Positions 9,124 through 54,599 of a stretch of 64,000 nt of DNA are shown in pieces. The stretch comes from a virus. The stretch is taken from the IMG/VR virus record IMGVR_UViG_3300028829_004116, positions 28,256 to 92,255 of that record; one strand, 5' to 3'. The notes under the pieces were generated by a model that had not been told where the DNA came from, did no database searches, and saw only the letters and a list, made by a program, of their open reading frames with translations. A program made the position numbers and the translations under genes. The first letter of the stretch is position 1. Each line of letters starts with the position of its first letter.

Positions 9124-9267
9124 ATGTGGCGAGATACTTTAAAAAAGGATGCTGAAACTTATTTTAGAGAAAAAATTGCGGAGTATGAGCGCAGATTAAA
9201 AAGGGACCCGAAAGATGTTAAGGCTAAAAATGCCTTGAAATATTATAGAGAACAATTAGGTGAGTAA
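9124..9267 (+). CDS. Small protein with W-x-D-x-L-K leader variant (47 aa, MWRDTLKK...), not in ORF track
   Basis: Manually translated; fills the gap between neighbouring genes. Confidence 0.6.
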   Translation: MWRDTLKKDAETYFREKIAEYERRLKRDPKDVKAKNALKYYREQLGE

Positions 9268-9381
9268 ATGACACGATGTAATTTTTTAGATACTTGGTTT
9301 GATGAACAGTCAAAGATAATAGATAAAAAAGAAGAGAAAACTAAGAAAGATTTTGTAACTGGAAAGGAGGTAAAAAAATGA
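9268..9381 (+). CDS. Small hypothetical protein (37 aa, MTRCNFLDTWFDEQ...)
   Basis: Manually translated; abuts the upstream stop and is ATGA-coupled to the next gene. Confidence 0.55.
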   Translation: MTRCNFLDTWFDEQSKIIDKKEEKTKKDFVTGKEVKK

Positions 9382-9713
9382 GTTGGCAAGATATATTAAA
9401 AGTTCATCCCATGTCACTAAAAGTTATAGGTTCTGCTATAAGACAGGCAATTAGTAATCATTTAGAAGAAACGGGTAGAAAAGATGTGTATGAGTTTGAA
9501 GAAATTATAAAACTGTTTCCTAAATATTTAGAAATAACGGGACAAAAATCTAAAGCAAGGTTAAAAAATAAATTTGAAAAGATGGTGATGAGATATATTC
9601 CCGAAGGATATGGAAAATTAAAAGAATTATTAACCGATAAAAAAGGTTATGCTATACCGAGTTCTATTGAATCCGCAATTACCGGATGGAAAAAAATAGG
9701 TGAAAACGAATGA
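9378..9713 (+). CDS. MSWQDILK-leader protein
   Basis: GGAGG RBS; shared leader. Confidence 0.75.
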   Translation: MSWQDILKVHPMSLKVIGSAIRQAISNHLEETGRKDVYEFEEIIKLFPKYLEITGQKSKARLKNKFEKMVMRYIPEGYGKLKELLTDKKGYAIPSSIESAITGWKKIGENE

Positions 9714-9886
9714 GTTGGCAGGACATTCTAAAATACAATCGAAAACATTATGTTCGTGCAGGTCGTAAGCATAATGACCCTAAAACAATTAGTGTTCATC
9801 AAAAAATTTTAGAAATAGTTAATGACCCTAATATTCCAAGAAGAGAATTAGGTGCAAGAATAAAACAAATTTTAGAAGAGGAATAA
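9710..9886 (+). CDS. MSWQDILK-leader protein (58 aa), not in ORF track
   Basis: GGTGA RBS, ATGA coupling, identical leader peptide. Confidence 0.75.
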   Translation: MSWQDILKYNRKHYVRAGRKHNDPKTISVHQKILEIVNDPNIPRRELGARIKQILEEE

Positions 9887-28069: not shown

Positions 28070-28372
28070 TTATTCAGCATTCCAATCACCGAACTCTTCT
28101 TCAGTCATTTCTGTTTCTCTTGAAATTACTTCACCTGTATAGGCTTCTTCATCTATTTCATCCACACGATTATCCAACATTGTAAGGTATGCCAATCGAA
28201 CATCTGTTGCTCGTAAGCGTGAATTATTACCACGCTTTTGTGCTTCATAGTTCGACAAGTTAACCAATGCTTCAATCAGTTGTTTCGCTCTTTCTTGAAA
28301 TTCAATTGCCGCATCTTGTGTAACGCCACGCTTTCCTTTCCACATTCTCATTATTTCTCTAATACTAACCAT
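28070..28372 (-). CDS. Histone-fold protein with acidic C-terminal tail
   Basis: VTQDA-x33-ATDVRLA matches archaeal HMf VSDDA-x32-AEDIELA; GGAGG RBS. Confidence 0.7.
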   Translation of the reverse strand: MVSIREIMRMWKGKRGVTQDAAIEFQERAKQLIEALVNLSNYEAQKRGNNSRLRATDVRLAYLTMLDNRVDEIDEEAYTGEVISRETEMTEEEFGDWNAE

Positions 28373-28776
28373 TTTTTCAGTCCTCCTTCTTTATAAAAGT
28401 GTTTTGTTTCAGCAGTTTGGATATTAATACATATCCACATTGAACCTATTAGACTACTGACCTCTAATACTTCCCAATTCTTTTTGAGAATGCCCAATGT
28501 TTTCATAATCATTCCGGAACCATAAATTGTATTATATTCCTTAGAAAGGATGGGCAAGTTATCATGCACATACTGTATAATATGCGGTTGTTGAATACTT
28601 GCCCAAACCTCTCCACTTATTTCAAAAAATCCTGTTCCATTACATACGATACATTTATTTCCCTCGCATACGGGACACTCAATTTCTCTATCACCAAATG
28701 TAGGAAACCTTACAACTCGAAGGCTTCTCGGTCTACTATCTTCGTCATTCTTTCCCCTTCTGTTGTTTTCTCCCAT
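28351..28776 (-). CDS. Zn-finger protein (DnaJ-like CxxCxG repeats)
   Basis: CPVCEGNKCIVCNGTG. Confidence 0.6.
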   Translation of the reverse strand: MGENNRRGKNDEDSRPRSLRVVRFPTFGDREIECPVCEGNKCIVCNGTGFFEISGEVWASIQQPHIIQYVHDNLPILSKEYNTIYGSGMIMKTLGILKKNWEVLEVSSLIGSMWICINIQTAETKHFYKEGGLKKWLVLEK

Positions 28777-29447
28777 ATCATGTGTTCTCCTTTTCCAATA
28801 ACAATTGCTTCTTGATTAATAGGTCGCCAATTACGCAGGGTTCTATTATCTGTTCCAGACCAAAAGGCATAACCAAAGGGATGAGTATGAATCCAACAAC
28901 GGATAGGAATACTCATTCCTGTAACATTTACCCCGCCATAATCTACATAACCCGGACTTCCACTATTCATAAATAGTTTTCCTTTACGGTCTACAATAAC
29001 TGATACTTCAAGGCCCGGTAGAATACTGGTAGAAGCATTCCAAATTGCATCTAAAAATCTACGGTCACGAGGAATATCTTCTCCTTTTCGCAATAAATGT
29101 CCCCAAACTTCATTAATTTCTTTTTGCCAGACTTCAGCAGGAATATCTGTATGTTGAACATTTAGTGGGCCTTTTGGTTCTGTTCCACGGAAAAAGGAAC
29201 TCATAGCCCCTCCTTCGTATTTAGGTTCAACTTTAGCACCGTAAGTTTGTAGGGTTTCTTGAACCCATTCGGTGTTATCTTCTTCACGAATTATTGCTAC
29301 AACTTCATACCTTGAGTTGATAACTAATTCATCAATGTATTCCGCATCGTTCTCAGGTTCCCAAGTTTCATAGAACAAGTCTATCATATCCTCGGTCACT
29401 TCTTCTTCATGTCCAATTATTTCTTCTCTTACTATTTTATCACTCAT
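28710..29447 (-). CDS. JAB/MPN+ metallo-isopeptidase
   Basis: Catalytic E (LEVSV) and H-T-H-P-x5-S-x2-D (HTHPFGYAFWSGTD); probable start 29447, coupled to ThiF. Confidence 0.88.
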   Translation of the reverse strand: MSDKIVREEIIGHEEEVTEDMIDLFYETWEPENDAEYIDELVINSRYEVVAIIREEDNTEWVQETLQTYGAKVEPKYEGGAMSSFFRGTEPKGPLNVQHTDIPAEVWQKEINEVWGHLLRKGEDIPRDRRFLDAIWNASTSILPGLEVSVIVDRKGKLFMNSGSPGYVDYGGVNVTGMSIPIRCWIHTHPFGYAFWSGTDNRTLRNWRPINQEAIVIGKGEHMIWEKTTEGERMTKIVDREAFEL

Positions 29448-30022
29448 GCGCTCACCACAATATGTTTTGGAGTATAATCTCCAGCAAAGAATCTTTGAAC
29501 CCATTGTGCGCCATAACCTGCAACCGCTACATGAGTAAAGTGGACTCCTTGATTACTTTTATCCCAATTATCACCTTGACATGAAAAAGAACCTTCCGGT
29601 CCTGCTGTTAATGTCGAGTAAAGTTTCGGGTCTTCATCCGAACTTACAAGCAAACCGGCTCGACCCTGCGCTCTCAAATCAAGCCATCTAATGCCTGATT
29701 TATAAAGCATCTTTCGCACATCTAAGTTATCAGCACAACATATAACTAAGTCATACCCTTCAATTTGAGAAGGTGTAAGAACCTTATATGGTTGAGATTT
29801 AAAGACAAATCTTTGTGATAGTGCTTCTGCTTTATTCAAGCCAACATCATCAGCATCAAAGTTTTGATAACTTAGGTTTTTCATTTCAACAACATCAGGG
29901 TCATACACTGTAATGTCGTATAACCTCGTAGTTGTAATCATTCTATTTGGTCTATCTAATAGTGAAATCAAGTAAGACCCAATTCCACCGCATCCAATAA
30001 TCATTATTTTATTTTTCTTCAT
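29444..30022 (-). CDS. ThiF/MoeB/E1-family adenylyltransferase
   Basis: GCGGIGS, DPDVVE..NLSYQ, NKAEAL, CCADN; candidate catalytic Cys in FSCQ. Confidence 0.92.
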   Translation of the reverse strand: MKKNKIMIIGCGGIGSYLISLLDRPNRMITTTRLYDITVYDPDVVEMKNLSYQNFDADDVGLNKAEALSQRFVFKSQPYKVLTPSQIEGYDLVICCADNLDVRKMLYKSGIRWLDLRAQGRAGLLVSSDEDPKLYSTLTAGPEGSFSCQGDNWDKSNQGVHFTHVAVAGYGAQWVQRFFAGDYTPKHIVVSA

Positions 30023-30621
30023 ACATATTTCCCCATTTTTTTTACATGTCGCCATACGGTATTTTCACTTACATGAAACATTCTTGCTACCTTACCGTAT
30101 GACAAGTCGGTAGCCAAATATATACAGGACATGAGAACTTCTTTCGTTATTTTCATGTCATCAGATACATAGGTAATTAATTTCTTCGCATTCAAATTAT
30201 GTGTATCACAGAACTCATGCGCCTCTTCAACTGAATAAACTAAGTCTATGTTGAAAATGTTCTGTAATCTTTTAACAACGGTTTTAGCCCTGCGTGTTTT
30301 AACCCCCATGAAGCCGCCCAACTTTGCTAAATTGAGCGACTTGTTGTTAAGGAACACTACTGCTACTGATAGTTCCGACATAGTATAATTACCCTTGAGT
30401 AAGGCAACATAAGATGAGCGAAACATTTTTTTAATTTCTTCTGTTTTTTCTATTCCAAATTCACTACAAATTAGAGATAATTCTACTAAGTTTCTATCCA
30501 CTTTAACGGAATTATTTATCTCCATAATTCTCGAAACATTAATAAAATTACAAGCCTCGCATACATAGAGGTTTATCTCCTTGTCGAATTTATTTCTACC
30601 GGAACAATATAGACAAGGCAT
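30019..30621 (-). CDS. Divergent transcription factor B (TFB/TFIIB)-like protein
   Basis: N-terminal Zn ribbon CxxC-x14-CxxC, cyclin-like helices (CIYLA), C-terminal HTH (YGKVARMFHVSENTV). Confidence 0.7.
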   Translation of the reverse strand: MPCLYCSGRNKFDKEINLYVCEACNFINVSRIMEINNSVKVDRNLVELSLICSEFGIEKTEEIKKMFRSSYVALLKGNYTMSELSVAVVFLNNKSLNLAKLGGFMGVKTRRAKTVVKRLQNIFNIDLVYSVEEAHEFCDTHNLNAKKLITYVSDDMKITKEVLMSCIYLATDLSYGKVARMFHVSENTVWRHVKKMGKYV

Positions 30622-31882
30622 CCCAATCGACTCTATTTTTTATTTTGTATCTTTCATATCCTCTTAGGGTTGAAACTTGGGAAAAGGTATGAACATCGTT
30701 TAACAATGCCATAGACCTTGCCGCAAATTGGTCTCCAATTGAAATACCTGTATGTGCTTGGTCGATACATATTGGTCCGAAAAGATAGTATTTTTTACCG
30801 GATTTTTTATCTGACCACAGTTGGTCTGCCCTAACATTAGGTAGTCCAGTATCACTATTCGCCTCATACACAGGTGTACCGTTTTGTTTTGTTATTTTAA
30901 AATTACTTATACAAAACACAGCGTATGTAGAAACATCTTGTCTTCCTGCCTTATAGCCTCTATCGACTACCAACCAATCTAAGTTCTTTCCCCTAACTGC
31001 CATGCTTTGTTTTTCAACTTTATCAATAATCATAGCCTTTTCGAAGATTTTACCCTTGAACCTTTCTGTGAGGTCTTTGAATAATTCCATGCTTCTTTTT
31101 TCGACAAGTGAAGACTTGCGATTTTGTTCCAAGAACGCATATACTACTTGTATTTCGCTTTTGGATAAGAACTCTTCACGGGATAAGTAATATAGTTCTT
31201 CGGGACTTACACCTAAGAATTTGTTTTTATTCCCTCTACATGAATTAATAAAAGACTTGATTTGAGTGTCTTTAAATTCCACCCACACGCCTTCATAAAG
31301 TTCAATTGCAGAATGTTCCTTTCCAGTTTTTTCTAAATTGAGAAGGGTGGTAATTTTATTATTATTATTATCAAAAAATGTGTATTCAATTTTGTTAACA
31401 ATTGCTGAAGAGATTTTCGGGTCTGTTTCAATAATCATATCTACGAATTTACTAAACTTTTTCTCATCTTTACTGATAGCAAGTTTCATTAAAATACCGG
31501 GAACACAAGAATTAAGGCGGGTTTTAGTTAATTTATTACCGTTCAAATAGTATTTACCTTCATAGTGTTGAAAGATAACCTTGCCATATGCACTAAAAAA
31601 TGCAAAGGTTTCTTGTCTTTTAAAGCAATTATTTAACAGTTTAACGACGGTTCTGGCAAAATAATTTATAGTTTGGTCGTTTCCTTCCCTAACCGAATGG
31701 TCGTTAACACCCCGGTTTCTATAATATCTATATCCCCGATATTCCGTATGGGTAGAAACCGTAGAAATAAAGGTCGTCAGTTGTCTTTGTCTTGCAGTAA
31801 TTGTAACACTGAAAGTTTGACCGCCCCCAGCCTTTACCCTTTTAATTAATTTTGTTACGCTTTTAATTCCTTCTTCATTCAT
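30596..31882 (-). CDS. Protein with C-terminal Cys-containing domain (GPICID...GD...ALLND), candidate E2-like
   Basis: Motif shared with late genes 45351/46033/46730; same operon as E1 and JAB; function is inference. Confidence 0.5.
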   Translation of the reverse strand: MNEEGIKSVTKLIKRVKAGGGQTFSVTITARQRQLTTFISTVSTHTEYRGYRYYRNRGVNDHSVREGNDQTINYFARTVVKLLNNCFKRQETFAFFSAYGKVIFQHYEGKYYLNGNKLTKTRLNSCVPGILMKLAISKDEKKFSKFVDMIIETDPKISSAIVNKIEYTFFDNNNNKITTLLNLEKTGKEHSAIELYEGVWVEFKDTQIKSFINSCRGNKNKFLGVSPEELYYLSREEFLSKSEIQVVYAFLEQNRKSSLVEKRSMELFKDLTERFKGKIFEKAMIIDKVEKQSMAVRGKNLDWLVVDRGYKAGRQDVSTYAVFCISNFKITKQNGTPVYEANSDTGLPNVRADQLWSDKKSGKKYYLFGPICIDQAHTGISIGDQFAARSMALLNDVHTFSQVSTLRGYERYKIKNRVDWDALSILFR

Positions 31883-32114
31883 ATTCCTCATCCGCCTGTG
31901 CAAATCTAATTTGTTCTCGCAAGTAGCCATCACATAATTCTGTTAACTTATCCTGCATTTGTTGTGCCATCCCCGGAATTGCATTTCTCATCAACCCCAA
32001 CCAAACTCGGTGATGTTGGTTAATATATAATATTGGGTGTAGGCCACCTTCATCCATAGTAATAGTCAAGGGTGGTAGTTCCATATCATCAACAATGTGA
32101 AATTCGATTCTCAT
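31875..32114 (-). CDS. Hypothetical protein
   Basis: Coupled ORF. Confidence 0.55.
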   Translation of the reverse strand: MRIEFHIVDDMELPPLTITMDEGGLHPILYINQHHRVWLGLMRNAIPGMAQQMQDKLTELCDGYLREQIRFAQADEEYE

Positions 32115-36256: not shown

Positions 36257-36463
36257 TCAATAGCAACCTCCAACAATTGCTTGAGTTAGCACTACATCTG
36301 TAATGTCTTCTGCGTTCATGTTTGCTATTTCGTCATGCGAAACCAATTCACCGTTAATGTAAGCCCAGTGTGTCGGGTGGTCCAAAATCTGCTGAATTGC
36401 TTCGTCTGCCGATAAGTCTAATTCTGTGTGTCCTGTCTGATTTAAAATTGTTACCTTTACCAT
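36257..36463 (-). CDS. Ubiquitin-like beta-grasp protein (ThiS/MoaD/SAMP type) ending GG-CY
   Basis: 68 aa; AYINGELV...DVVLTQAIVGG pattern; GGAGG RBS. Confidence 0.8.
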   Translation of the reverse strand: MVKVTILNQTGHTELDLSADEAIQQILDHPTHWAYINGELVSHDEIANMNAEDITDVVLTQAIVGGCY

Positions 36464-44673: not shown

Positions 44674-45345
44674 ATGGATTGGAAGGATATATTAAAAATT
44701 AAAATAAACAGTTTAAGTGATGCTTCAAGGGTAGCGAGAGATTATGTGCCGGAAGATTACATAGAGGGGCATTTACTTACACAAGAAGAATATGATAAAT
44801 TGTCCAATGAGGAAAAAAGAAAATATCATAAGAAAGTTTATAATAAATACGCAAATTTAAATCTAAATAATAGAAGAGAGGCCAAATGGCATAATAACAA
44901 TGCAGGGCGAATAAAGACCGATATAGGAAATGCTATTTTAAAACCCCACCCCACAGAAGAAGAAGATTTTAAGCCAGCACCAACAGGCTTTCCGGCAAAA
45001 CCAAATAGTTATAAAAATATTTTACAAGGGTCAGGTAGAAGATTATATGGACCATATAGACTTCGTACAGCAAAAGCACACGGATATAGAGTACCGAGAA
45101 AACCACAAAGAAAAAGGGGTCCAAAAAGAAAAAGGGGTGCAAAAAAGGGTTCAAAACACGAGTCTACAAAATTAAGAGAAAAACGACAAAACGAGAAAAT
45201 CAACCAAATCATCGTTGATTATTTTAAAATCTATAACAGTAGGTTTGGCCGTAATCCCACTTTACAAGAAATAGCAAATGAAGAGGATAGACCCCTTACA
45301 GTAGATGAAATTGAATCGTTTAAGAGATATGCACAGGGTAGGTAA
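44674..45345 (+). CDS. MDWKDILK-leader basic protein
   Basis: Leader; K/R-rich; C-terminal RNPTLQEIA HTH-like segment. Confidence 0.75.
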   Translation: MDWKDILKIKINSLSDASRVARDYVPEDYIEGHLLTQEEYDKLSNEEKRKYHKKVYNKYANLNLNNRREAKWHNNNAGRIKTDIGNAILKPHPTEEEDFKPAPTGFPAKPNSYKNILQGSGRRLYGPYRLRTAKAHGYRVPRKPQRKRGPKRKRGAKKGSKHESTKLREKRQNEKINQIIVDYFKIYNSRFGRNPTLQEIANEEDRPLTVDEIESFKRYAQGR

Positions 45346-45350
45346 TTAAA

Positions 45351-46031
45351 ATGGGTTGGCAGGATATTTTAAAGTCGAAAGAGGAAAGTCGAAAACAAGA
45401 ACGAGATAAACTTTTAGAGGAATTAGTAAATAATGTTCATTTTTTTAACCCTAATATAGGAATATTTCCTATTGTTCGACGGCCTGTGCCGAGATTGAAA
45501 CCCTTAGTAAGAAGTTTAGAGTTTATGAGGCCCATTAAAGATGATATAAAATTTTTCCCATTCGGTGAACGAAAGATTTATGTCGAATATACTTTTGAAG
45601 TATTTGGGATAGAATGTGGTATTAGTTATAGGTTAAGAGAATTAGGTCAAATTTCTGAAGATAATTTTATTACGATAGGCGGAAATGAAGTATGTGTGAA
45701 GGCTACCAGTGAAATGACGAATGGAGATTTTTTAACTACCTTAGTGTATGCGGTAAAAAATAATGCTATTCCCGACATTGTAAAATTCGTCACCTATTCG
45801 TCATCCAAAGGACATAAATATCGTGTGGACTCACATGTTTATGATTCCAGTGAAAAGAATTATAAAAGGTCTTTTCTTATTCAACTTTACACGGAATGGG
45901 AAGAATCTGATTTATTTGATAATAATGAAGATATAAATATGGAATTAATAAATAACAGTTTTAATTTAAATGATATTAATTTCTGGCTTGCTCAATTTGA
46001 AGTGCCTGAAGACATTTTAGGGAGATGGTAA
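45351..46031 (+). CDS. MGWQDILK-leader protein, paralog of 46033-46728
   Basis: Shared LEFM.P, C.KAT.EMTNGDF, PE..LG.W. Confidence 0.8.
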   Translation: MGWQDILKSKEESRKQERDKLLEELVNNVHFFNPNIGIFPIVRRPVPRLKPLVRSLEFMRPIKDDIKFFPFGERKIYVEYTFEVFGIECGISYRLRELGQISEDNFITIGGNEVCVKATSEMTNGDFLTTLVYAVKNNAIPDIVKFVTYSSSKGHKYRVDSHVYDSSEKNYKRSFLIQLYTEWEESDLFDNNEDINMELINNSFNLNDINFWLAQFEVPEDILGRW

Positions 46032-46032
46032 T

Positions 46033-46728
46033 ATGGGTTGGCAAGATATATTAAAGAATAGAAGACGAGATACGGCTCAAGAGATACTAATTTCCTTCCG
46101 AGAATTTACACCAATACGAGAAATAACTAAAGAGGAAGAAGACCGAGTTCTTTCATCTATGTATTTCGACACTAGGCCCCTTGTTTATAAAAGAACTTTA
46201 GAATTTATGAAACCCTTTGATGAAATTAAGAGAGATGGTTTAGATTTTGTTTTTAAATTCGATATAGAGGGAGTGCCTTTTACATATAAATTGCCGTTTT
46301 TACCGGATAGTGCGGCTCGTGCGGGTAGAGGTATTGGTGAAAAAGCATTCGATAATTTCCCGAAAATGGACTCAACTGGAATGCGTTTTTGCATAAAGGC
46401 CACAAGAGAAATGACAAATGGGGATTTTATGGTTACACTTCTTCTCGCAAGTGAAAATAACTCATTACCTCCAATTCTTACTCTTCCCGCATATGTAGAA
46501 AGACACATGCCGGAAACTAAAATGCACGAATCATTATCTTTCCCCACAGACAGCAATGTGAGAACCATTTTTGATGGAAATGAACTCGATTACAAGACAA
46601 CACTTTTAGAGAGAATATGGGAACATGTAGAAGGTCTTGATGAAATGGACTGGCCGAAGGTTTTCATTTGGAAGATTAATGAACAGTTAAAGGAATACAT
46701 ACCTGAAGAATTATTAGGGAAATGGTAA
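46033..46728 (+). CDS. MGWQDILK-leader protein, paralog of 45351-46031
   Basis: Shared LEFM.P, C.KAT.EMTNGDF, PE..LG.W. Confidence 0.8.
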   Translation: MGWQDILKNRRRDTAQEILISFREFTPIREITKEEEDRVLSSMYFDTRPLVYKRTLEFMKPFDEIKRDGLDFVFKFDIEGVPFTYKLPFLPDSAARAGRGIGEKAFDNFPKMDSTGMRFCIKATREMTNGDFMVTLLLASENNSLPPILTLPAYVERHMPETKMHESLSFPTDSNVRTIFDGNELDYKTTLLERIWEHVEGLDEMDWPKVFIWKINEQLKEYIPEELLGKW

Positions 46729-46729
46729 T

Positions 46730-48094
46730 ATGGGTTGGCAAAATATATTAAAGGCTTTTGACCGAGACGAATGGGAAAAATTTTTTAACGAACACATAAA
46801 CCCACAATTAAAAGGGTGGGAAATTAGGCCATTCTGGTCTGGAGATGTAGTTTTTCAAAGTTTAACCGAGAACTTAAGCATTAGGGGTAATATTCCAAAA
46901 GAGATATTTGTTCGAAATCCAAAAGACGGGGGTTTCTTTAATATTAACCTAATCTTGAGGTTACTAAAACCTTCTATTCGTTCATTAGATTGGTTTTTAG
47001 AAGTTACTAAAAATCTCGATGTAAAGTATGAGAGTGATTTAATTACTGTCACAGGCGAATCCTCGTTAAGTTATACTATTATGTCAACTCAACTGAAATC
47101 GAGTGGCTGTTATGAAGTGGAAACTGAAGAAGGTTATAATATTTGTATAGAAATAGATGGTGCAAAACCAGTAGGAGATAATATATTAGCATTAACATTG
47201 GCGTTGTTAAATGATGAATCAACAAGAAATGAAATTCAAGGTATTGACGAATATTTAGACCGAACCGGAGAGGTTGAATGTCAGATTTGTGGCAATTACG
47301 AACAAGTAGCATTTGGTGATTATAATTATGAATTTAGATGTGATGCATGTGGGGCTTCCTCAAATGTTGAACAAATTAATTTTGCTCCCGGTTTTTCAGC
47401 CGAAACAACTGTTTTATACGCAGAAGGACCTGAGGGGACATTTGACCCACAGTATAATCATGCTTATGGTGATAAATTTTATCAGGGTAATAAGTTATTT
47501 TCACTATATGACCCTGAAAATTATGAATTATTTGTAGTAGGTTATGGTGATAATGACTTTAACGATATATTGTTTGAGACAAATGTGGAGGGCGTATATG
47601 AAATAGAACATGGTACGGAACTATATTCGGAAGACGGTTATGAAATTGATATAGAAACTGTATATAATAATATTGGAGACGAAAATGAATTTATTAATTT
47701 TGCGAAAGAATATTATGATATGGAATTAATTTTAAATACTTTAGAGTATGAGGAAGACGGAGAATATTGGACCAAAGATGGAAAAAAATACGAACTCGTT
47801 GACGGAGAAATGATTGAACAGGATAAAGATGAAATTACAAAGAACTTAAGTAGTAAAGCCGTTCTCCCTATTAATATGAAGTGGACAGACTATCTTAAAA
47901 AAACTTCTAAAACAGAGGCTGGGGATTGGGAATCTGCCTTAAAGAGTTTTATTTCCGATGGTAAAAAATTGGGAATACCTTTGTCGGTAATGGAATTATT
48001 AAAGTTGGCTAAAGAAGCAACGACTTCGCAAAGCGAAGGTTTTGAAACCCTACACCGACCTACCTTCAGTGAGGAGGAAGAGGAAGATGTTTGA
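46730..48094 (+). CDS. MGWQNILK-leader acidic protein with CI...GD...LALLND domain and Zn ribbon
   Basis: ICIEIDGAKPVGDNILALTLALLND; CQICG/CDACG; internal MKWTDYLK at 47876. Confidence 0.75.
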   Translation: MGWQNILKAFDRDEWEKFFNEHINPQLKGWEIRPFWSGDVVFQSLTENLSIRGNIPKEIFVRNPKDGGFFNINLILRLLKPSIRSLDWFLEVTKNLDVKYESDLITVTGESSLSYTIMSTQLKSSGCYEVETEEGYNICIEIDGAKPVGDNILALTLALLNDESTRNEIQGIDEYLDRTGEVECQICGNYEQVAFGDYNYEFRCDACGASSNVEQINFAPGFSAETTVLYAEGPEGTFDPQYNHAYGDKFYQGNKLFSLYDPENYELFVVGYGDNDFNDILFETNVEGVYEIEHGTELYSEDGYEIDIETVYNNIGDENEFINFAKEYYDMELILNTLEYEEDGEYWTKDGKKYELVDGEMIEQDKDEITKNLSSKAVLPINMKWTDYLKKTSKTEAGDWESALKSFISDGKKLGIPLSVMELLKLAKEATTSQSEGFETLHRPTFSEEEEEDV

Positions 48095-49208
48095 ATGGGA
48101 CCGACAAGGTGCATTGGCATTATTTGGGGAATATAAGGCTTTTTGGGGACCAAGTAAAAATGCTGAATTTGGCATTACAGGTAGGCCTGATGCTAATACA
48201 AGAAAAGTTAATGCTAAGTCTGTTTATCTTTCAGTAGAGAATCATGGCCGTGTCGGAATGTCAAGAAAAAATATAGACTTTTCCGGCGGTGGTGCAATTT
48301 TAGAAAAACTTTTATCTTTCTTAGAGCGAGAAACTTTTCTTGAAGAAGACCTTCTCGATTTTGAAGACATGGAAAGAGATTTAGACAGATTAGAAACGAG
48401 GCCAAATAGAAATCCCGCTAATATAACATTTAGAACTATGACCTCCTTCAAACCTCCAGCAACCGATGATGATGAACCTGAAATTAAAAGAGGTGTAGTC
48501 GCTGGACATTTTTTAACAATACCTTACTGGGAATACCGAAAATGGAAGGCTGATAAAATAAATGACTCCTTTCCGAGTGACAGACCTAAAGAGGAGTGGT
48601 ATGCGTTTTCTAAGGATGGTGGTGAGCCACCAAAGAATAAAGCAAAACCTCCTCTATGGCAAGCATTATTGGGTGAGAAAAATAGCCTTAGAAAACTTGT
48701 AAATGATATTAAAGAATTAGTTGAAAAGAGTATGGGGCCGGGCGGCGCACCAATAAAAATTGATGTTAATGCTAATTTAGGCCCAAGAACTGGAGAAAGG
48801 TTGGCCGCTATTGCTGGGCTAAATAAGGCAATACGAGAAGTTATGGCTGACGGGACTATTTACACAAAGGGTAGAAGATTTCCCGTGAAGAGTAGACTTA
48901 ACGATGCGGTGAGAAATAAAACATTTAATATTAGTTCTTCGGACCTTGCCATACTCGTAGAAACCTGTACTGTTAAGATTGACGGTGAGCGTGTTGAGAT
49001 TGACGAAGTGGTTAATTACGAGAAGATAAATAATATTACAATGCGTTTCCCGAAGAGTAATAAGACACTTAATAATGTAGTTCGAGCAGTAATGGGCGAA
49101 CAAATGGAAACATTCAAAGTTCCCGGTAGCACTGAGGGAGATGGAATTACTCTCAAGCAACTCGATGCTATGGAAGCGTTTAGTAATTTAATGAAGGCGA
49201 TAAAATGA
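48087..49208 (+). CDS. Hypothetical protein
   Basis: Probable start 48087 after GAGG; long ORF. Confidence 0.7.
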   Translation: MFEWDRQGALALFGEYKAFWGPSKNAEFGITGRPDANTRKVNAKSVYLSVENHGRVGMSRKNIDFSGGGAILEKLLSFLERETFLEEDLLDFEDMERDLDRLETRPNRNPANITFRTMTSFKPPATDDDEPEIKRGVVAGHFLTIPYWEYRKWKADKINDSFPSDRPKEEWYAFSKDGGEPPKNKAKPPLWQALLGEKNSLRKLVNDIKELVEKSMGPGGAPIKIDVNANLGPRTGERLAAIAGLNKAIREVMADGTIYTKGRRFPVKSRLNDAVRNKTFNISSSDLAILVETCTVKIDGERVEIDEVVNYEKINNITMRFPKSNKTLNNVVRAVMGEQMETFKVPGSTEGDGITLKQLDAMEAFSNLMKAIK

Positions 49209-49756
49209 ATAACAGTAGAGGACCGTTAAATAGTAGTGGAAATTGGTGGTCGATTATTAAGGCATACGAAGATTTACAAGAAGAAAGTTATCAGGCCGCT
49301 TACATTGTAGTTGAAGAAATTATCAACTCTATCGGTAATGAAGAAATTTCCGAATTATTAACAGAAATGTTAGATATTTGGGATGGAGATAACTTAAGAG
49401 TTCACGCTACAGGTGGACTAGTATCTGGTGGAACTCAACATGTGGGTTATGCTCAAGAAAATAGATTAACCCCCGCACAGCAAACAAGAATGGATGAATT
49501 AGAGGAACAAGTGAAAGAGGGAACTATTACCAGAGTAGATAATAAAGAATATGAAAGATTAGTAACTTTAGCAGGTTTCGCATTACAAAAACCCCAATCA
49601 GCCGGAATAATTATGTTTGCTGTAAGAACTCCGGATTCAGTATATGCGACTGAACCTACACAAATTTATTTTAATGAAGAGGGCGATGATAAGTTTTCAA
49701 CCACCACAATAGCGGAGTTTATTAAAGATTTAAATGAGGTAATAGAAAATGCGTAA
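49205..49756 (+). CDS. Hypothetical protein with NWWSIIK leader variant
   Basis: ATGA-coupled. Confidence 0.65.
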   Translation: MNNSRGPLNSSGNWWSIIKAYEDLQEESYQAAYIVVEEIINSIGNEEISELLTEMLDIWDGDNLRVHATGGLVSGGTQHVGYAQENRLTPAQQTRMDELEEQVKEGTITRVDNKEYERLVTLAGFALQKPQSAGIIMFAVRTPDSVYATEPTQIYFNEEGDDKFSTTTIAEFIKDLNEVIENA

Positions 49757-50411
49757 AATTCGTAAGTCTTGCCCTCTTTGTAATCATCCTGATAGGGATA
49801 ACTTAGAAATAGAAATTCTTGAAGGTCGCATGGATGCGAATGCTCTTGATAGAGAAGAAGGTTGGAGAGCCGGAACTACAAGAAAACATATGCAGGAACA
49901 TTTGAATGCGTATCACGATGATTCAAATGATAAGTGCGCTTTATGTGTAGCACCAAATAGAAAGGATTTGGAAGCGGCAATTGTAGACGGACATATGAAA
50001 CCGAGTAAGGTTGCAGAATATTTAGAAGTCGGTGTCGATGCTATTAACCTACATATGAAAAAACACCTCAAACCTATCGTTCAACAATCGGCGGCATTAG
50101 ATGTAGCCCGTGTAGAATTGAATGAGATTGACTTACTTTCACAAAATGTTTCAATGTTGCAGGGCAAGATTCAACAATTTATCACAGACAATGAAGATTT
50201 AGATTTCAAGACAGTGGATTCTTTGGTAAAACTTAGTAAAGAAATTCGTGAGTCGCTAAAGTATGCGCTGGAATTTAAGGGCAAATTAATACATAAAAGA
50301 GAAGAAACAGTGGTTATTCAACAGATTGAAGTTATACAAAAGGTTCTTATAGAAAGATACCCCGAAGTATGGACTGAGATACGAGATGATATTGCGGAGA
50401 GATTAGCATGA
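49749..50411 (+). CDS. Duplicated C-x2-C...H-x3-H Zn/HTH protein with coiled coil; terminase small subunit candidate
   Basis: Two repeats CPLCNHP...KHMQEH and CALCVAP...LHMKKH; HTH plus coiled-coil layout typical of TerS. Confidence 0.5.
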   Translation: MRKIRKSCPLCNHPDRDNLEIEILEGRMDANALDREEGWRAGTTRKHMQEHLNAYHDDSNDKCALCVAPNRKDLEAAIVDGHMKPSKVAEYLEVGVDAINLHMKKHLKPIVQQSAALDVARVELNEIDLLSQNVSMLQGKIQQFITDNEDLDFKTVDSLVKLSKEIRESLKYALEFKGKLIHKREETVVIQQIEVIQKVLIERYPEVWTEIRDDIAERLA

Positions 50412-50875
50412 GTTGGTGGAATATAATTAAACAAGATTGGGAACTTTATGCTATGCAATTTTCACTTCAATTATCTTTTGATAATTTAACTGCCTATCGA
50501 ATCACCCTTAACCAAGAAGAACAAAACTATTTTAAGGAAATATTTAGTAAAACACCAGCAATGCACCATTTATTTATTGCACCTCATAGTGCCTCTATAA
50601 GAGTTAATGAAATACCAGAAAAAATAAATAATTTAGATGAAGAAGTTATGTCTATGACAGGTATGGGTAGACTAAGTGATAAAGAAAAATTAGATTTAGT
50701 AAGGTTGCGACCAAACACATACTCTTTAATTGAGCATGATGGTGGTTTTAGCAACCCATCTCAATTAAAATATGTTATGGGAAATGAGTTAATATTCCGC
50801 CGTACAGTAATTGCTATGGAAAATTCAGTACAACAGATTAAAGATAATAAAAGAGATGTCGGGTTTATTCCGTAA
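50408..50875 (+). CDS. MSWWNIIK-leader protein
   Basis: Leader; ATGA-coupled. Confidence 0.7.
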   Translation: MSWWNIIKQDWELYAMQFSLQLSFDNLTAYRITLNQEEQNYFKEIFSKTPAMHHLFIAPHSASIRVNEIPEKINNLDEEVMSMTGMGRLSDKEKLDLVRLRPNTYSLIEHDGGFSNPSQLKYVMGNELIFRRTVIAMENSVQQIKDNKRDVGFIP

Positions 50876-50899
50876 ATATAAAAATGGGGAGAGATTACA

Positions 50900-51112
50900 A
50901 TGAGTTGGAAAGATATACTAAAGGAACACCCGATGGAACGCAAAAAGCGGTTGAAAAAAGAAAAGAAAGAAATACGAAGAAGAGAAGAGGCTAATTGCAA
51001 ATGTCCTAGAAAACCAGATGGTAGTCACGATTTAGAAAGAAATTGCATGTGCGGGTTTTTCCAAGATACCAGTAATGATGGAGAAAAATTAGATTTTAAG
51101 TTGTTTGAATGA
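50900..51112 (+). CDS. MSWKDILK-leader small basic Cys protein
   Basis: Leader; CKC...H...CMC. Confidence 0.7.
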   Translation: MSWKDILKEHPMERKKRLKKEKKEIRRREEANCKCPRKPDGSHDLERNCMCGFFQDTSNDGEKLDFKLFE

Positions 51113-51121
51113 GGGATTAGC

Positions 51122-51745
51122 ATGAATTGGTTTGATATTCTAAAAATTAAATTTAAGCCAGTAGACCGTGATAGACCTGCACCTAATATTAAAGTGGAAC
51201 CGTCATTATCAGGTGAAGTAGGGAGTTATAATTCGGAAACAGGTGAAACCGTTATTTCAGCCAATCCCGATGTGACTCCTGAACAACTTGCAGATACATT
51301 AGCACATGAATCAACACATGAAGTCCAATTTGGTACAGAACCCATATTAAGAGAAATTATAAATAATTCAGCAAATAGTATTATTGCATTACTTTATGCT
51401 GCAAAGGCTACACCGATAGAAGAATTAACCGATGAAGTAGTAAATGATTTACTTTCAGATGTAGAACTGGGCTTAGGTAATTCTATAAAATTATTCCTCG
51501 AACAAGAATTTACAATAGAAACACAAGCCTACTCATTGGATAGAAATTTTGAAACTCGACAAGACCGAAATAAATTTGCTGGACATATTATAGACCATTT
51601 TGAGCGAAGAATTTTAATGTCGATGAAGGTAATTGATTTAGAAGATGAAAAGGTAGAAATACTGTTGAGGGGATTGATAGAAACTCTCGAACCCATACTT
51701 TTAAGGATTTTTAGAACTTTTGTAATAAGGGAGGGTAGACAATGA
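51122..51745 (+). CDS. MNWFDILK-leader zincin-like metallopeptidase
   Basis: GSY...TLAHESTH...E.QAY (HExxH plus downstream E). Confidence 0.7.
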   Translation: MNWFDILKIKFKPVDRDRPAPNIKVEPSLSGEVGSYNSETGETVISANPDVTPEQLADTLAHESTHEVQFGTEPILREIINNSANSIIALLYAAKATPIEELTDEVVNDLLSDVELGLGNSIKLFLEQEFTIETQAYSLDRNFETRQDRNKFAGHIIDHFERRILMSMKVIDLEDEKVEILLRGLIETLEPILLRIFRTFVIREGRQ

Positions 51746-52101
51746 AGTGGCAAGATATTTTAAAATACGACGACATACCGGCTATGTTTGAAGACCTGCG
51801 TAGAGAAATTGTAGAATACTTCCCACCTCGTTATATTGGTGATGCCAACCAACCAACTTCAATAATAGGTATTATATTTTTATTAATAGACCATTTAGAA
51901 AGTCCTATGTATGCCGAGCCGAGAACACAGGGAGTATTACGAACATTAATGAGAAAAATTGATAAAGCGCAAGACCAATTTTCCGAAGACGAGGGACATG
52001 ATGAAGCCTTTGTAGATGGCAATACTTTATTTTATGCAACTGTTTCTGGAATAATTGACAAAATTAGTGAAGCGTTAAAAGTAAGGGAGGAATATACATG
52101 A
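51742..52101 (+). CDS. MKWQDILK-leader protein
   Basis: Leader; ATGA-coupled. Confidence 0.7.
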   Translation: MKWQDILKYDDIPAMFEDLRREIVEYFPPRYIGDANQPTSIIGIIFLLIDHLESPMYAEPRTQGVLRTLMRKIDKAQDQFSEDEGHDEAFVDGNTLFYATVSGIIDKISEALKVREEYT

Positions 52102-52304
52102 GTTGGGAAACTATCCTTAAACTTGATTGGCGAGAAATGCTCGACTCTTATATAACCGAAGACAGTTTATTTCAAAACATTTATAAACACCTTACCGACA
52201 GTCTTGGTTATAACGCACCGTCGAAAGACGAGGTTATTGACTATTTAGAAGAAAATTACGAAAGACATAAATTATGGTCAAACTTATGGAGTGAAAAAAA
52301 ATGA
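52098..52304 (+). CDS. MSWETILK-leader protein
   Basis: Leader; ATGA-coupled. Confidence 0.7.
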   Translation: MSWETILKLDWREMLDSYITEDSLFQNIYKHLTDSLGYNAPSKDEVIDYLEENYERHKLWSNLWSEKK

Positions 52305-52657
52305 ACTGGAAAAATATACTAAAAAACGCAACCGTACCACAAGATTACGATGAAAAACTAATTGCCGCCATGATGAAGCGAGGTAATGAAAAGCCTAACT
52401 TTGGTTATATTAATTTTGACAATGCAAGGCAGTTGGCTTCATTTAAACTTAATGAGCCATTGAATGTGACGACAGAATATCGAAAAGTGGCAATGCACAT
52501 GAGAGATTTATTGGGAGAAGCATTGGCTGGAACTTACAACCATCGAGATTTCGATGCTAGCGAGTACCTCAATAATCCCGAATCTTATGTTAGTGATGCT
52601 CAAACACAATCTAGTTTTCCTATAGAAAAAATTGCTGAGAGAATTGGCGGAAGATAA
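52301..52657 (+). CDS. MNWKNILK-leader protein
   Basis: Leader; flanked by a direct repeat. Confidence 0.7.
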   Translation: MNWKNILKNATVPQDYDEKLIAAMMKRGNEKPNFGYINFDNARQLASFKLNEPLNVTTEYRKVAMHMRDLLGEALAGTYNHRDFDASEYLNNPESYVSDAQTQSSFPIEKIAERIGGR

Positions 52658-52696
52658 GGGAGATTACGAAAGACATAAATTATGGAGTGAAAAAAA

Positions 52697-52984
52697 ATGA
52701 ACTGGGAAAATATACTTAAAGCAAAATTTATGAAAGATACCGAAGGAAAATATACTGTTTCTGATGCTTATGAACCTAGAGAATTTGATAAAATCTTACA
52801 TGACCCAGCAAAACAGACTGAAAGGAATCAAATTACAGTAGATAGATTTCCTCACAAACATACAAGTGAGGGTCATCAATATTATGAAACAGATTATGGT
52901 TTTTCAGTCTGTATGCAATGTAAAGTAAAGGTTCGACCTAAAGTTCACAAAGAAATAACAGGAAGAGCAGCATCAGGATATTAG
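52697..52984 (+). CDS. MNWENILK-leader protein with H-x-H...CxxC
   Basis: Leader; HKH...CMQC. Confidence 0.7.
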   Translation: MNWENILKAKFMKDTEGKYTVSDAYEPREFDKILHDPAKQTERNQITVDRFPHKHTSEGHQYYETDYGFSVCMQCKVKVRPKVHKEITGRAASGY

Positions 52985-52996
52985 GTAAGTGAAAGA

Positions 52997-53218
52997 ATGA
53001 CATGGAAAGATATTACTAAAAACCTTACACCGGAACAAGTAAGAACTATGGAACGAAGTGTAAAAAAAACAGGCGTTTGCCGAAGATGTAAAAGAAGTGT
53101 TAAAACTTGGGAACCATGTCCTATGAATTTACCCCCACTACCAATAAAACCTAATTGTCCAATGAAGACTGAATACAAGGACTCTAATAGTAGGGGTCCA
53201 TTTACTGCGAGGGATTAA
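52997..53218 (+). CDS. MTWKDITK-leader small Cys protein
   Basis: Leader; CRRC...C...C. Confidence 0.7.
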   Translation: MTWKDITKNLTPEQVRTMERSVKKTGVCRRCKRSVKTWEPCPMNLPPLPIKPNCPMKTEYKDSNSRGPFTARD

Positions 53219-53219
53219 C

Positions 53220-53432
53220 TTGTGGTTCGATGTATTGCGTAAGAAAAGTAAAGCCCGACGAAAAAAGGGTAGTAAGCAATATAAGAAAAAGAAATCTAAA
53301 ACAAAGAAAGACGCTTGTTATCGCAAGGTAAAAAGTCGTTATAAAAAATGGCCCTCCGCCTACGCTTCAGGTGCTTTAGTCCAATGTCGTAAAGTTGGTG
53401 CGGCTAATTGGGGTAATTCAAAAAAGAAGTGA
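53220..53432 (+). CDS. MWFDVLRK-leader, very basic protein with DACY.KVKSRY..WPSAYASGALV.CRK motif
   Basis: Motif recalled from marine viral hypothetical proteins; TTG start. Confidence 0.65.
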   Translation: MWFDVLRKKSKARRKKGSKQYKKKKSKTKKDACYRKVKSRYKKWPSAYASGALVQCRKVGAANWGNSKKK

Positions 53433-53436
53433 TACT

Positions 53437-54258
53437 ATGAATTGGCAGGAAATACTCAAGGAAGAATGGTTTAATAATCTTCCTAAGAGTAAGCAAAAAC
53501 AACTTAATTCCGAACCTTCATTCAATGTTAGTATTCCTGAAATGTCATTTCCCGATAACGAGAAGGAAATACCAAAGGTTCTAAAAATTATGGAAGGTCA
53601 AGATTTAGATAAAAAAACTATTCACAATTTAGACAAAAATAACCATAAGATGATGCTCGACATTGTTGAGGAAAAAATGTCCGATTGGAAGGGTTTTCTT
53701 GAAGATTTAGATATATATTCGTTTCGCCTAAAAAAGAAATACGGTAGAAAGAGACCTTATTTAGTTTCGGATAAAATTAAATCTTTAACAGATACAGATG
53801 ACACACCTTCTTTTCCAAGCGGTCACGCCATTGACGCACATGCGTTGGCAAAGGTTCTCGGTGAGAAATATCCTGATAAGAAAAAAGAACTTAACATTAT
53901 GGCAGATTCAATTTCACTTTCCCGTGTTCAAATGGGAAGTCATTATCCAAGTGATATAGAAGCAGGTAAAAAAGTAGGACTTATGCTCGCTGATGCGTAT
54001 TTAGATATTTCTAAATCTTGGGAAGATATTTTACAAAGTGGCGATAACTTTAAGAGAGAGAAGGCGGAAGGCTTACATGGGTGGTTTTCTCGACGGGGCG
54101 GAAAGGGTAAATCAAAAGGTTGGGTAAGTTGTTCTTCATGTGGAAAGAAAAACGGACCTAAACCTTGTGGAAGAAAAGACGCTTCAAAGGGAACAAAGAG
54201 AAGATGCCGCCCAACTTGTGGCGCGTGTAAAACTTACAAAAGGAGGAAAGGAAAATGA
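53437..54258 (+). CDS. MNWQEILK-leader PAP2/vanadium-haloperoxidase-family phosphatase fused to a basic Cys-rich domain
   Basis: K-x6-RP, PSFPSGH, SR-x5-H-x3-D motifs; second leader-like SWEDILQ before the C-terminal domain. Confidence 0.8.
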   Translation: MNWQEILKEEWFNNLPKSKQKQLNSEPSFNVSIPEMSFPDNEKEIPKVLKIMEGQDLDKKTIHNLDKNNHKMMLDIVEEKMSDWKGFLEDLDIYSFRLKKKYGRKRPYLVSDKIKSLTDTDDTPSFPSGHAIDAHALAKVLGEKYPDKKKELNIMADSISLSRVQMGSHYPSDIEAGKKVGLMLADAYLDISKSWEDILQSGDNFKREKAEGLHGWFSRRGGKGKSKGWVSCSSCGKKNGPKPCGRKDASKGTKRRCRPTCGACKTYKRRKGK

Positions 54259-54599
54259 GTTGGCAAGACATATTAAAAAGGGGAAAGCGTAAAAAAATTA
54301 ATATGCCTCTTTTTAGAGAAGCCCTCGGAGTCGCTACGGCTACCCTAAACACATTTACTCTTTCAGAAATTTTACCACTTGCACAAGAATTATATAAAGA
54401 GTATTTACTTAGGGATGGTATTTTTACTAAGGCTGGACCTGCCACCCATCACGCTAAAATCGTTTTTAGTACCCGTGGTAGAGCCGGTACATTTTTTGGT
54501 ACGGTCATTAATAATCTAGGGGTTCATCGTTCTACTACCCGAAGGAAAAAACTACCATCGGGAGCAGCAGAAACTATTTACGAAAAAGTGGAGGAATAG
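54255..54599 (+). CDS. MSWQDILK-leader protein
   Basis: Leader; GGAGG RBS; ATGA-coupled. Confidence 0.75.
   Translation: MSWQDILKRGKRKKINMPLFREALGVATATLNTFTLSEILPLAQELYKEYLLRDGIFTKAGPATHHAKIVFSTRGRAGTFFGTVINNLGVHRSTTRRKKLPSGAAETIYEKVEE

What the first reader, a model, noticed from the sequence alone, without database searches (positions are those of the whole stretch)
45351..47260. A Cys-centred domain from the E1/JAB operon is repeated in three leader-tagged late proteins
Seen: 30596 has VRG...PICIDQAHTGISIGDQFAARSMALLND; 46730 has VTG...NICIEIDGAKPVGDNILALTLALLND; 46033 has FCIKATREMTNGDFMVTLLLASEN; 45351 has VCVKATSEMTNGDFLTTLVYAVKN. All keep C-x8-9-GD followed by a hydrophobic helix. Inference: an invariant Cys in four divergent copies suggests catalysis, possibly a thioester carrier. 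This would link the Ubl operon to the putative packaged proteins, as one core E2-like enzyme plus diversified, possibly injected, variants or decoys.
Basis: partly seen in the sequence, partly recalled or inferred. Interest (0 to 1): 0.8.

Follow-up and report, generated by a model that had tools for sequence, protein, structure and literature searches.

The report
E2-like domain repeated in an archaeal virus
A marine archaeal virus of the magrovirus type has four proteins sharing a ubiquitin-conjugating-enzyme-like domain with an invariant cysteine: one lies beside the virus's own ubiquitin-like protein, E1 and JAMM protease genes, and three carry the N-terminal tag common to its late proteins, which suggests a virus-encoded protein-tagging system with several carrier enzymes.

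Summary
All four quoted strings are at the stated ORFs. The spacing is C-x9-GD in the three tagged proteins and C-x10-GD in the operon protein.

The similarity is more than chance. Profile comparisons of independent homologue sets align the same 41-44 columns: operon family vs 46730 family, E 7.7e-6 and 1.6e-6; 45351/46033 family vs 46730 family, E 2e-8. Motif HMMs find each other reciprocally among all 787 six-frame ORFs of the 92-kb genome. The genome has only four copies. The Cys and GD are invariant in every complete homologue of all three families.

The operon protein is syntenic with ThiF E1, JAMM and a Zn protein in 76-79 of 80 related viral loci. A small protein ending in an invariant ...GG occurs in about 70 of them.

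Best reading: a new sequence family of E2-like domains, with one core enzyme and three tagged paralogues. Thioester chemistry, packaging and injection are untested.

Other first-stage notes on this same genome flagged the operon and the tag. The scan holds nothing on other DNA.

The parts
45351..46031 (+). Tagged protein A4a (226 aa). It has the MGWQDILK leader, an alpha1 motif RSLE at residue 54, Cys115 (nt 45693-45695), GD at 125-126, and an invariant C-terminal Trp.
46033..46728 (+). Tagged protein A4b (231 aa), a tandem paralogue of A4a. It has Cys120 (nt 46390-46392), GD at 130-131, and an invariant C-terminal Trp.
46730..48094 (+). Tagged protein A2 (454 aa). From N to C terminus: leader, small alpha/beta subdomain, UBC/RWD-like core, 4-Cys Zn ribbon, beta-rich variable region, and a near-invariant 84-aa acidic tail.
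46943..47260 (+). UBC/RWD-like core of A2 (residues 72-177). It runs helix 72-93 (RSLD at residue 84), five strands, Cys139 on the last strand (nt 47144-47146), a loop, then helix 148-160 starting with GD.
   Evidence: AF2 model, block pLDDT about 75-94. VIA matches to RWD/UEV/E2 over residues 82-168.
30596..31933 (-). Operon protein A1 (445-aa ORF; the likely start is Met18 at nt 31882). It is conserved across magrovirus-like contigs.
30623..31123 (-). Complete UBC-like domain of A1 (ORF residues 271-437). It has an alpha1 motif RSME at residue 280, Cys389 (nt 30767-30769), GD at 400-401, then three helices.
   Evidence: AF2 model, mean pLDDT 86. VIA aligns it end to end with whole E2 cores and with the TSG101 UEV domain.
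29444..30055 (-). ThiF/E1-like adenylating enzyme (203 aa). The GxGGxG motif and Cys159 are conserved in 65 homologues.
   Evidence: Pfam ThiF 3.9e-14. PADLOC E1-E2 models match in the E1 part only. Conservation. Synteny in 79 of 80 loci.
28710..29504 (-). JAMM/JAB metalloprotease with a complete E...HxHx7Sx2D motif.
   Evidence: Synteny in 78 of 80 loci.
28351..28776 (-). 141-aa protein with a conserved CPxCxGxxCxxC zinc knuckle. It belongs to the same conserved cluster.
   Evidence: (76 of 80 loci)
36257..36463 (-). Candidate ubiquitin-like protein (68 aa). It ends in an invariant ...IVGG followed by 2 extra residues here and 0-8 variable residues in relatives.
   Evidence: No Pfam or PDB sequence support.

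Best explanation
The shared Cys-centred segment is the active-site half of a UBC (E2)-like domain: the last strand, the Cys loop and helix alpha2. This is a new sequence family confined to magrovirus-type archaeal viruses.

Shown:
- The four copies are homologous.
- The two modelled families have the UBC/RWD fold class.
- The Cys, the GD at the helix start and the [ND][DN] at the helix end are invariant.
- The 445-aa operon protein (A1) is fixed in a gene cluster with a ThiF E1, a JAMM protease, a Zn-knuckle protein and, a few kb away, a small protein ending in GG.

Inferred:
- The E1 adenylates the GG end of that Ubl, after the JAMM trims its short tail.
- The E1 passes the Ubl, possibly through its conserved Cys159, to Cys389 of A1.
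- A1 then transfers it to lysines of viral or host proteins, and the JAMM reverses the modification.
- The three proteins at 45351, 46033 and 46730 are lineage-specific duplicates of this domain that kept the Cys. They are more likely additional Ubl carriers with other partners than dead copies.
- Their MxWxxILK leader, shared with about 20 + strand proteins of this genome, would send them wherever that tag sends its cargo, perhaps the capsid.
For: - Homology. Low-stringency and global hhalign also line up the leader, an alpha1 motif RS[LM][DE] and the Cys-GD motif in the same order.
- Invariance of Cys and GD.
- Models: pLDDT 86 and 78.5. The Cys sits at the end of the last strand, 9-10 residues before alpha2.
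- Synteny over 80 IMG/VR loci, even where A1 is only 25-30% identical: ThiF in 79, JAMM in 78, Zn protein in 76.
- The GG-ended protein occurs in about 70 loci. Its IVGG is nearly invariant (QGG in three divergent loci) and is followed by 0-8 variable residues.
- E1 and JAMM catalytic motifs are conserved.
Against: - No sequence model of E2 matches: Pfam including UQ_con and the Prok-E2 families, and the PADLOC Cap2 E2 part. A PDB profile search was empty.
- Foldseek gave nothing at E <= 0.001.
- There is no HPN motif.
- The Cys directly follows a strand rather than sitting in a long loop.
- I could not superimpose coordinates, so equivalence to the E2 catalytic Cys, and its exposure, are inferred from topology only.
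- The 45351/46033 family was not modelled.
- The tagged genes lie 13-15 kb away from the operon on the other strand, so no genomic link ties them to the Ubl genes.
- The Ubl candidate has no Pfam or PDB sequence support.
- Archaeal SAMP systems work without any E2.
Confidence: 0.5

Rival explanations
1. These are non-catalytic UBC/RWD/UEV-like adaptor domains. The domain only binds partners such as the Ubl, the E1 or capsid parts, as TSG101 UEV or kinetochore RWD domains do. On this reading the conserved residues are structural: Asp as the N-cap and Asn/Asp as the C-cap of helix alpha2, with the Cys packed in the core.
For: - There is no HPN motif.
- GD and ND sit exactly at the helix ends in both models.
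- A2 lacks the C-terminal helices of a full E2 core.
Against: - UEV and RWD domains characteristically lack the Cys. Here it is invariant in more than 150 sequences of three families that are otherwise too diverged to align.
- A purely structural Cys would be expected to be replaced now and then by Ala, Ser or Val.
- A1 is fixed next to an E1 and a JAMM.
Confidence: 0.2
2. This is a Cys-dependent activity other than E2-type transfer, carried on a UBC-like scaffold. Candidates are a thiol protease or deconjugase, an E3-like Cys relay, a redox or persulfide carrier for sulfur transfer from the ThiF/Ubl pair, or a metal ligand.
For: - ThiF with a GG-ended beta-grasp protein also serves sulfur transfer (ThiS/MoaD; established knowledge).
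- A2 has a second nearly invariant Cys127 twelve residues upstream, and a Zn ribbon right after the domain.
- Local geometry differs from canonical E2, because the Cys is at a strand end.
Against: - No conserved His accompanies the Cys in any of the three families, so a Cys/His protease dyad is unlikely.
- No thiamine, molybdopterin or tRNA-thiolation genes were seen near the cluster.
- The presence of a JAMM and a tail after the GG points to conjugation and deconjugation.
Confidence: 0.12
3. This is a convergent or chance short motif with no common origin. The about 40-residue strand-loop-helix pattern arose independently, and the four proteins are unrelated outside it.
For: - At default stringency hhalign aligns only 27-44 columns.
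- The 45351/46033 family vs the operon family is not significant on its own (E 0.27-0.48).
- The 45351/46033-motif HMM does not find 46730 significantly (E 2.4).
Against: - There are reciprocal significant hits between independent alignments.
- The invariant positions coincide in all three families.
- A second collinear motif, RS[LM][DE] in alpha1, is shared.
- Two independently built models give the same fold class and overlapping hit lists.
Confidence: 0.05

Closest known systems
Canonical ubiquitin-conjugating enzymes (UBC core, e.g. UbcH5, Ubc1, Ubc9; Pfam UQ_con)
   Different: No HMM match to UQ_con. No HPN motif. The Cys directly follows a strand. A1 has extra strands inserted in the sheet and a 250-residue N-terminal extension. 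A2 and A4 lack the last helices.
Prokaryotic E2-like proteins of E1/JAB operons: Prok-E2 families (Iyer et al. 2006, PMC1779556), CBASS Cap2, Bil, Bub (PMC11601596)
   Different: No sequence match to any Prok-E2 or Cap2 E2 model. The E2-like gene is separate from the E1 rather than fused as in Cap2. It has a Cys, not the Ser/oxyester chemistry of Bub. It is encoded by a virus of archaea rather than by a bacterial defence island. It has three extra tagged paralogues.
UEV and RWD domains (TSG101, Vps23, FANCL, Knl1, GCN2)
   Different: They are non-catalytic and lack the Cys. Here the Cys is invariant.
Archaeal SAMP/UbaA/HvJAMM1 sampylation (PMC4443979, PMC2948915)
   Same: A small GG-ended protein, a ThiF-type E1 and a JAMM protease in an archaeal setting.
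   Different: Sampylation needs no E2. Here an E2-like domain is fixed in the cluster, and the whole set is viral.
Asgard virus Nidhogg E1-like genes (bioRxiv 10.1101/2021.07.29.454249)
   Same: An archaeal virus carrying ubiquitin-system genes.
   Different: Only E1-like genes were reported there. Here the cluster also holds a candidate Ubl, an E2-like domain and a JAMM. The magrovirus papers I read (PMC5434244, PMC10160649, PMC11706807) do not mention any of them.

Membership tests
UBC/E2 superfamily | UBC fold: N-terminal helix, antiparallel sheet, then helix alpha2 (with alpha3 and alpha4 in full E2s) | tested here: met
   [not shown]
UBC/E2 superfamily | Invariant Cys between the sheet and alpha2 | tested here: met
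   The Cys is invariant in all three families. In the models it sits 9-10 residues before alpha2.
UBC/E2 superfamily | The Cys superimposes on the E2 catalytic Cys and is solvent-exposed | not testable with these tools
   Model coordinates and residue-level structural alignments were not available. Only aligned ranges were given.
UBC/E2 superfamily | HPN motif upstream of the Cys | tested here: not met
   No H-P-N or similar conserved His/Asn appears in the family consensus before the Cys. Some accepted E2-like families also lack it (established knowledge).
Pfam UQ_con / Prok-E2_A-E | Sequence match to the family HMM above the cut-off | tested here: not met
   hmmscan found no such hit for the four proteins or for 101 A1-family members, even at E <= 1. 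PF00179 found nothing in the genome at E <= 10.
E1/E2/JAB/Ubl operon systems | Conserved neighbourhood with an E1-like gene, a JAB gene and a GG-ended Ubl | tested here: met
   For A1: ThiF in 79, JAMM in 78 and the Ubl candidate in about 70 of 80 loci. This is not met for A2 and A4, which lie 13-15 kb away on the other strand.
E1/E2/JAB/Ubl operon systems | Thioester (or oxyester) intermediate with the Ubl | not testable with these tools
   This needs biochemistry.
CBASS Cap2 / Bil / Bub E2-like | Sequence match to the E2 part of Cap2-type models, or fusion to the E1 | tested here: not met
   PADLOC E1-E2 models match only the ThiF protein, and only in their E1 part. The E2-like gene and the E1 gene are separate.
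UEV/RWD non-catalytic UBC-like domains | Absence of the catalytic Cys | tested here: not met
   The Cys is invariant in all three families.
Frataxin/CyaY fold | Best structural match to frataxins | tested here: inconclusive
   [not shown]

The most novel reading that the evidence does not exclude
A virus of marine archaea runs its own multi-E2 ubiquitin-like conjugation system. One early, universally conserved E2-like enzyme sits with the Ubl, E1 and JAMM genes. Three late E2-like enzymes are sent by the MxWxxILK leader into the capsid. They would be delivered with the DNA and so modify host or viral proteins at the very start of the next infection. In a bolder variant, the W-x-x-[IL] core of the leader is itself a Ubl-binding motif, so that Ubl conjugation organises cargo loading.
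Probability: 0.15. Interest if true: 0.85.

Novelty: new variant of a known kind. Interest (0 to 1): 0.68.

Why it matters
Ubl conjugation with an E2 step is known from eukaryotes, a few archaea and bacterial defence islands. Archaeal sampylation works without an E2. In the literature I could search, archaeal viruses have been reported to carry only E1-like genes.

If the reading is right, the widespread magroviruses of Marine Group II archaea carry a compact Ubl/E1/E2-like/JAMM set. Its E2-like domain is invisible to sequence models. One lineage has multiplied that domain on proteins carrying the genome's late-protein tag.

That would give a tractable, minimal viral system for asking three questions: what Ubl conjugation does during archaeal infection, how E2-like domains diversify, and whether virions carry such enzymes. 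It would also supply a new family for annotating about 150 clusters of hypothetical marine viral proteins.

Tried and rejected
- Complex prediction of A2 residues 1-178 with the mature Ubl gave no answer (score 0.01, mark 0.32). This counts neither for nor against binding.
Synteny was taken instead from IMG/VR loci.
- tblastn against GenBank phages found nothing for 45351 or the operon protein.
- PDB profile searches with the A1, A2 and domain-only A7 alignments gave no relevant hit.
- Foldseek against PDB and against BFVD gave nothing at E <= 0.001.
- ESM Atlas had no usable hit for A1. For A2 its own model is too poor to use (pLDDT 0.37).
- A full-library HMM search with the A1 domain profile returned 154 proteins. 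All were the same family or fragments of it. None was cellular or annotated, and no A2 or A4 member was listed among the 150 best.
- The weak Pfam hit Hom_end_hint in A1 (E 0.03, outside the motif) was set aside as noise. So were intein-like, PTP-loop, glutamine-amidotransferase and transglutaminase readings of the Cys motif, because their defining spacings or partner residues (CX5R, GxCxG, Cys/His) are absent from the consensus.
- The first paper search was too broad to be useful.

Full report
**Setting.** The window is the last 64 kb of a 92,255-bp viral record with about 35% GC. It encodes family B DNA polymerase, an RFC-like clamp loader, a group II chaperonin, a PD-(D/E)XK nuclease, a class II-type ribonucleotide reductase and a large terminase. 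A head protease and major head protein lie in the part before the window. Relatives are marine metagenome contigs of about 90 kb. This is the gene set and genome size described for magroviruses of Marine Group II archaea (PMC5434244). I use "magrovirus-type" as a description, not a taxonomic assignment.

**The observation.** The four ORFs and the quoted strings are real.
- ORFs 45351-46031 (226 aa, "A4a") and 46033-46728 (231 aa, "A4b") are full-length tandem paralogues (31% identity, E 3e-23).
- ORF 46730-48094 (454 aa, "A2") follows directly.
- ORF 30596-31933 (445 aa, "A1") is on the minus strand.
- The spacing is C-x9-GD in the three + strand proteins and C-x10-GD in A1.

**Is it more than chance?** I collected homologues for each family: 119 for A1, 37 for A2 and 46 for A4. 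The alignments show the following.
- In A1 the Cys, the next two residues (I, D), the GD(Q) and the ND are invariant in 21 and in 101 sequences. The Cys-GD motif was found in 78 of the 80 IMG/VR loci and is identical in its Cys and GD in all of them; 75 were taken forward.
- In A2 the Cys, the GD, two Leu and the final Asp are invariant in every complete sequence.
- In A4 the Cys and GD are invariant in 26 sequences.

So the invariant positions of three families, each derived separately, fall on the same columns. Profile-profile comparison aligns exactly these columns:
- A1 vs A2: probability 84%, E 7.7e-6. With an A1 alignment rebuilt only from IMG/VR loci: 90%, E 1.6e-6.
- A4 vs A2: 95%, E 2.1e-8.
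- A4 vs A1: the same columns come out as the best alignment, but the match is not significant alone. That link is therefore transitive through A2.

Motif HMMs were searched against all 787 six-frame ORFs of the genome. They find each other reciprocally (A1 to A2 at E 9.9e-5, A2 to A1 at E 6.4e-4) and find no fifth copy. At low stringency the A4-A2 alignment runs collinearly from the leader through a second shared motif, RS[LM][DE] in a helix, to the Cys-GD motif. A1 carries the same short motif in the corresponding helix. I conclude that the four copies are homologous over a whole domain, of which only the Cys half is well conserved.

**Fold.** The AlphaFold model of A1 (101-sequence alignment, mean pLDDT 86) ends in a domain made of a helix, a sheet and three helices. 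The Cys comes right after the last strand and 10 residues before the next helix. The GD starts that helix and the ND closes it.

The model of A2 (33 sequences, mean pLDDT 78.5, N-terminal half mostly 75-94) shows the same arrangement in residues 72-177. The Cys lies on the last strand, 9 residues before the helix. A 4-Cys zinc ribbon, a beta-rich variable region and a poorly modelled tail follow.

Foldseek found nothing significant. An exhaustive VIA-align search over 48,161 representative chains gave lists dominated by one fold class.
- About 19 entries occur in both lists.

**Context of A1.** In 80 IMG/VR loci holding an A1 relative, tblastn finds the window's ThiF protein downstream in 79, the JAMM protein in 78 and the Zn-knuckle protein in 76. 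The reductase lies upstream in 61. This holds even where A1 is only 25-30% identical.
- The ThiF protein keeps its nucleotide-binding glycines and a conserved Cys159.
- The JAMM keeps the full E...HxHx7Sx2D motif.
- The Zn protein keeps four Cys.

Following a first-stage note, I checked the 68-aa ORF at 36257-36463. It is present in about 70 of the loci. It always carries ...IVGG (QGG in three divergent ones), followed by 0-8 unconserved residues, and in some relatives the stop codon comes right after GG. That is the pattern expected of a ubiquitin-like modifier made with or without a short tail. It has no Pfam or PDB sequence support. Some members give sub-threshold hits to the T4 PinA family.

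**Context of A2 and A4.** They sit on the + strand in a run of genes that leads to the terminase. They start with the leader MxWxxILK, which about 20 + strand ORFs of the genome share. Codons vary synonymously among the copies, so the peptide is what is conserved. A2 and A4 relatives are far fewer than A1 relatives, and they occur only in contigs close to this one. Relatives carry one or two A4 genes. This fits a lineage-specific duplication of the A1 domain, then of A4.

**Mechanism.**
- Shown: homology, invariant residues, fold class, synteny, and intact E1 and JAMM motifs.
- Inferred: the E1 activates the GG end of the small protein. A1 takes it on Cys389 and passes it on. The JAMM matures and removes it. 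A2, A4a and A4b kept the Cys, so they are more likely further carriers than dead copies. The leader directs them with the other tagged proteins.
- Unresolved: whether the Cys lies at the E2 catalytic position and is exposed. Equally unresolved is everything about targets, timing and packaging.

**Comparison and novelty.** No E2 sequence model matches. A search of 1.84 billion cluster representatives with the domain profile found only this viral family. The three magrovirus papers I could read do not mention ThiF, JAB or ubiquitin. An Asgard virus preprint reports E1-like genes only. I therefore class this as a new variant of a known kind: a new, structurally recognisable but sequence-orphan E2-like family, viral, with tagged paralogues.

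Noticed in passing
window 36257-36463 (-): A 68-aa protein ending ...IVGG plus two residues. It is conserved in about 70 of 80 related loci, with a nearly invariant IVGG and a variable tail of 0-8 residues, so it is a candidate viral ubiquitin-like modifier. 16 of 37 members give sub-threshold Pfam hits to T4 PinA (Inhibitor_I24, best E 1.5e-4, 22 bits against a cut-off of 27).
   Followed up: partly
window 9124-9886 and 44674-54599; genome positions 3194, 15829, 16701, 17904 (L090): About 20 + strand ORFs start with MxWxx[IL]LK or a close variant. They include a PAP2 phosphatase and an 807-aa protein encoded just before the head protease region. Codons differ synonymously among the copies, so the peptide is under selection.
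   Followed up: partly
window 47840-48091 (+): The last 84 residues of the 454-aa protein are almost invariant, even in homologues that are only 34% identical overall. This stretch contains an internal copy of the leader-like motif (MKW..YLKK) and ends in an acidic run. Its model confidence is low.
   Followed up: no
window 46005-46031 and 46702-46728 (+): Both 226/231-aa paralogues, and all 26 aligned homologues, end in P-x-x-[IL]-L-x-x-W. The final Trp is invariant as the very last residue.
   Followed up: no
window 48042-49208 (+): The next gene probably starts at the ATG at 48087, which overlaps the stop of the 454-aa gene (ATGTTTGA). It is much better conserved than its upstream neighbour: 88% vs 43% identity in L001.
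   Followed up: no
window 30019-30621 (-): A protein with an N-terminal Zn ribbon and a C-terminal helix-turn-helix, which looks TFB-like, sits between the E2-like gene and the E1 gene. tblastn detected it in only 19 of 80 loci at that position.
   Followed up: partly
window 29444-30055 (-): The E1-like protein is only 203 aa, but 65 homologues keep a conserved Cys159 in an S-x-S-C-Q context. This is a candidate E1 catalytic Cys.
   Followed up: partly
[not shown]
   Followed up: no
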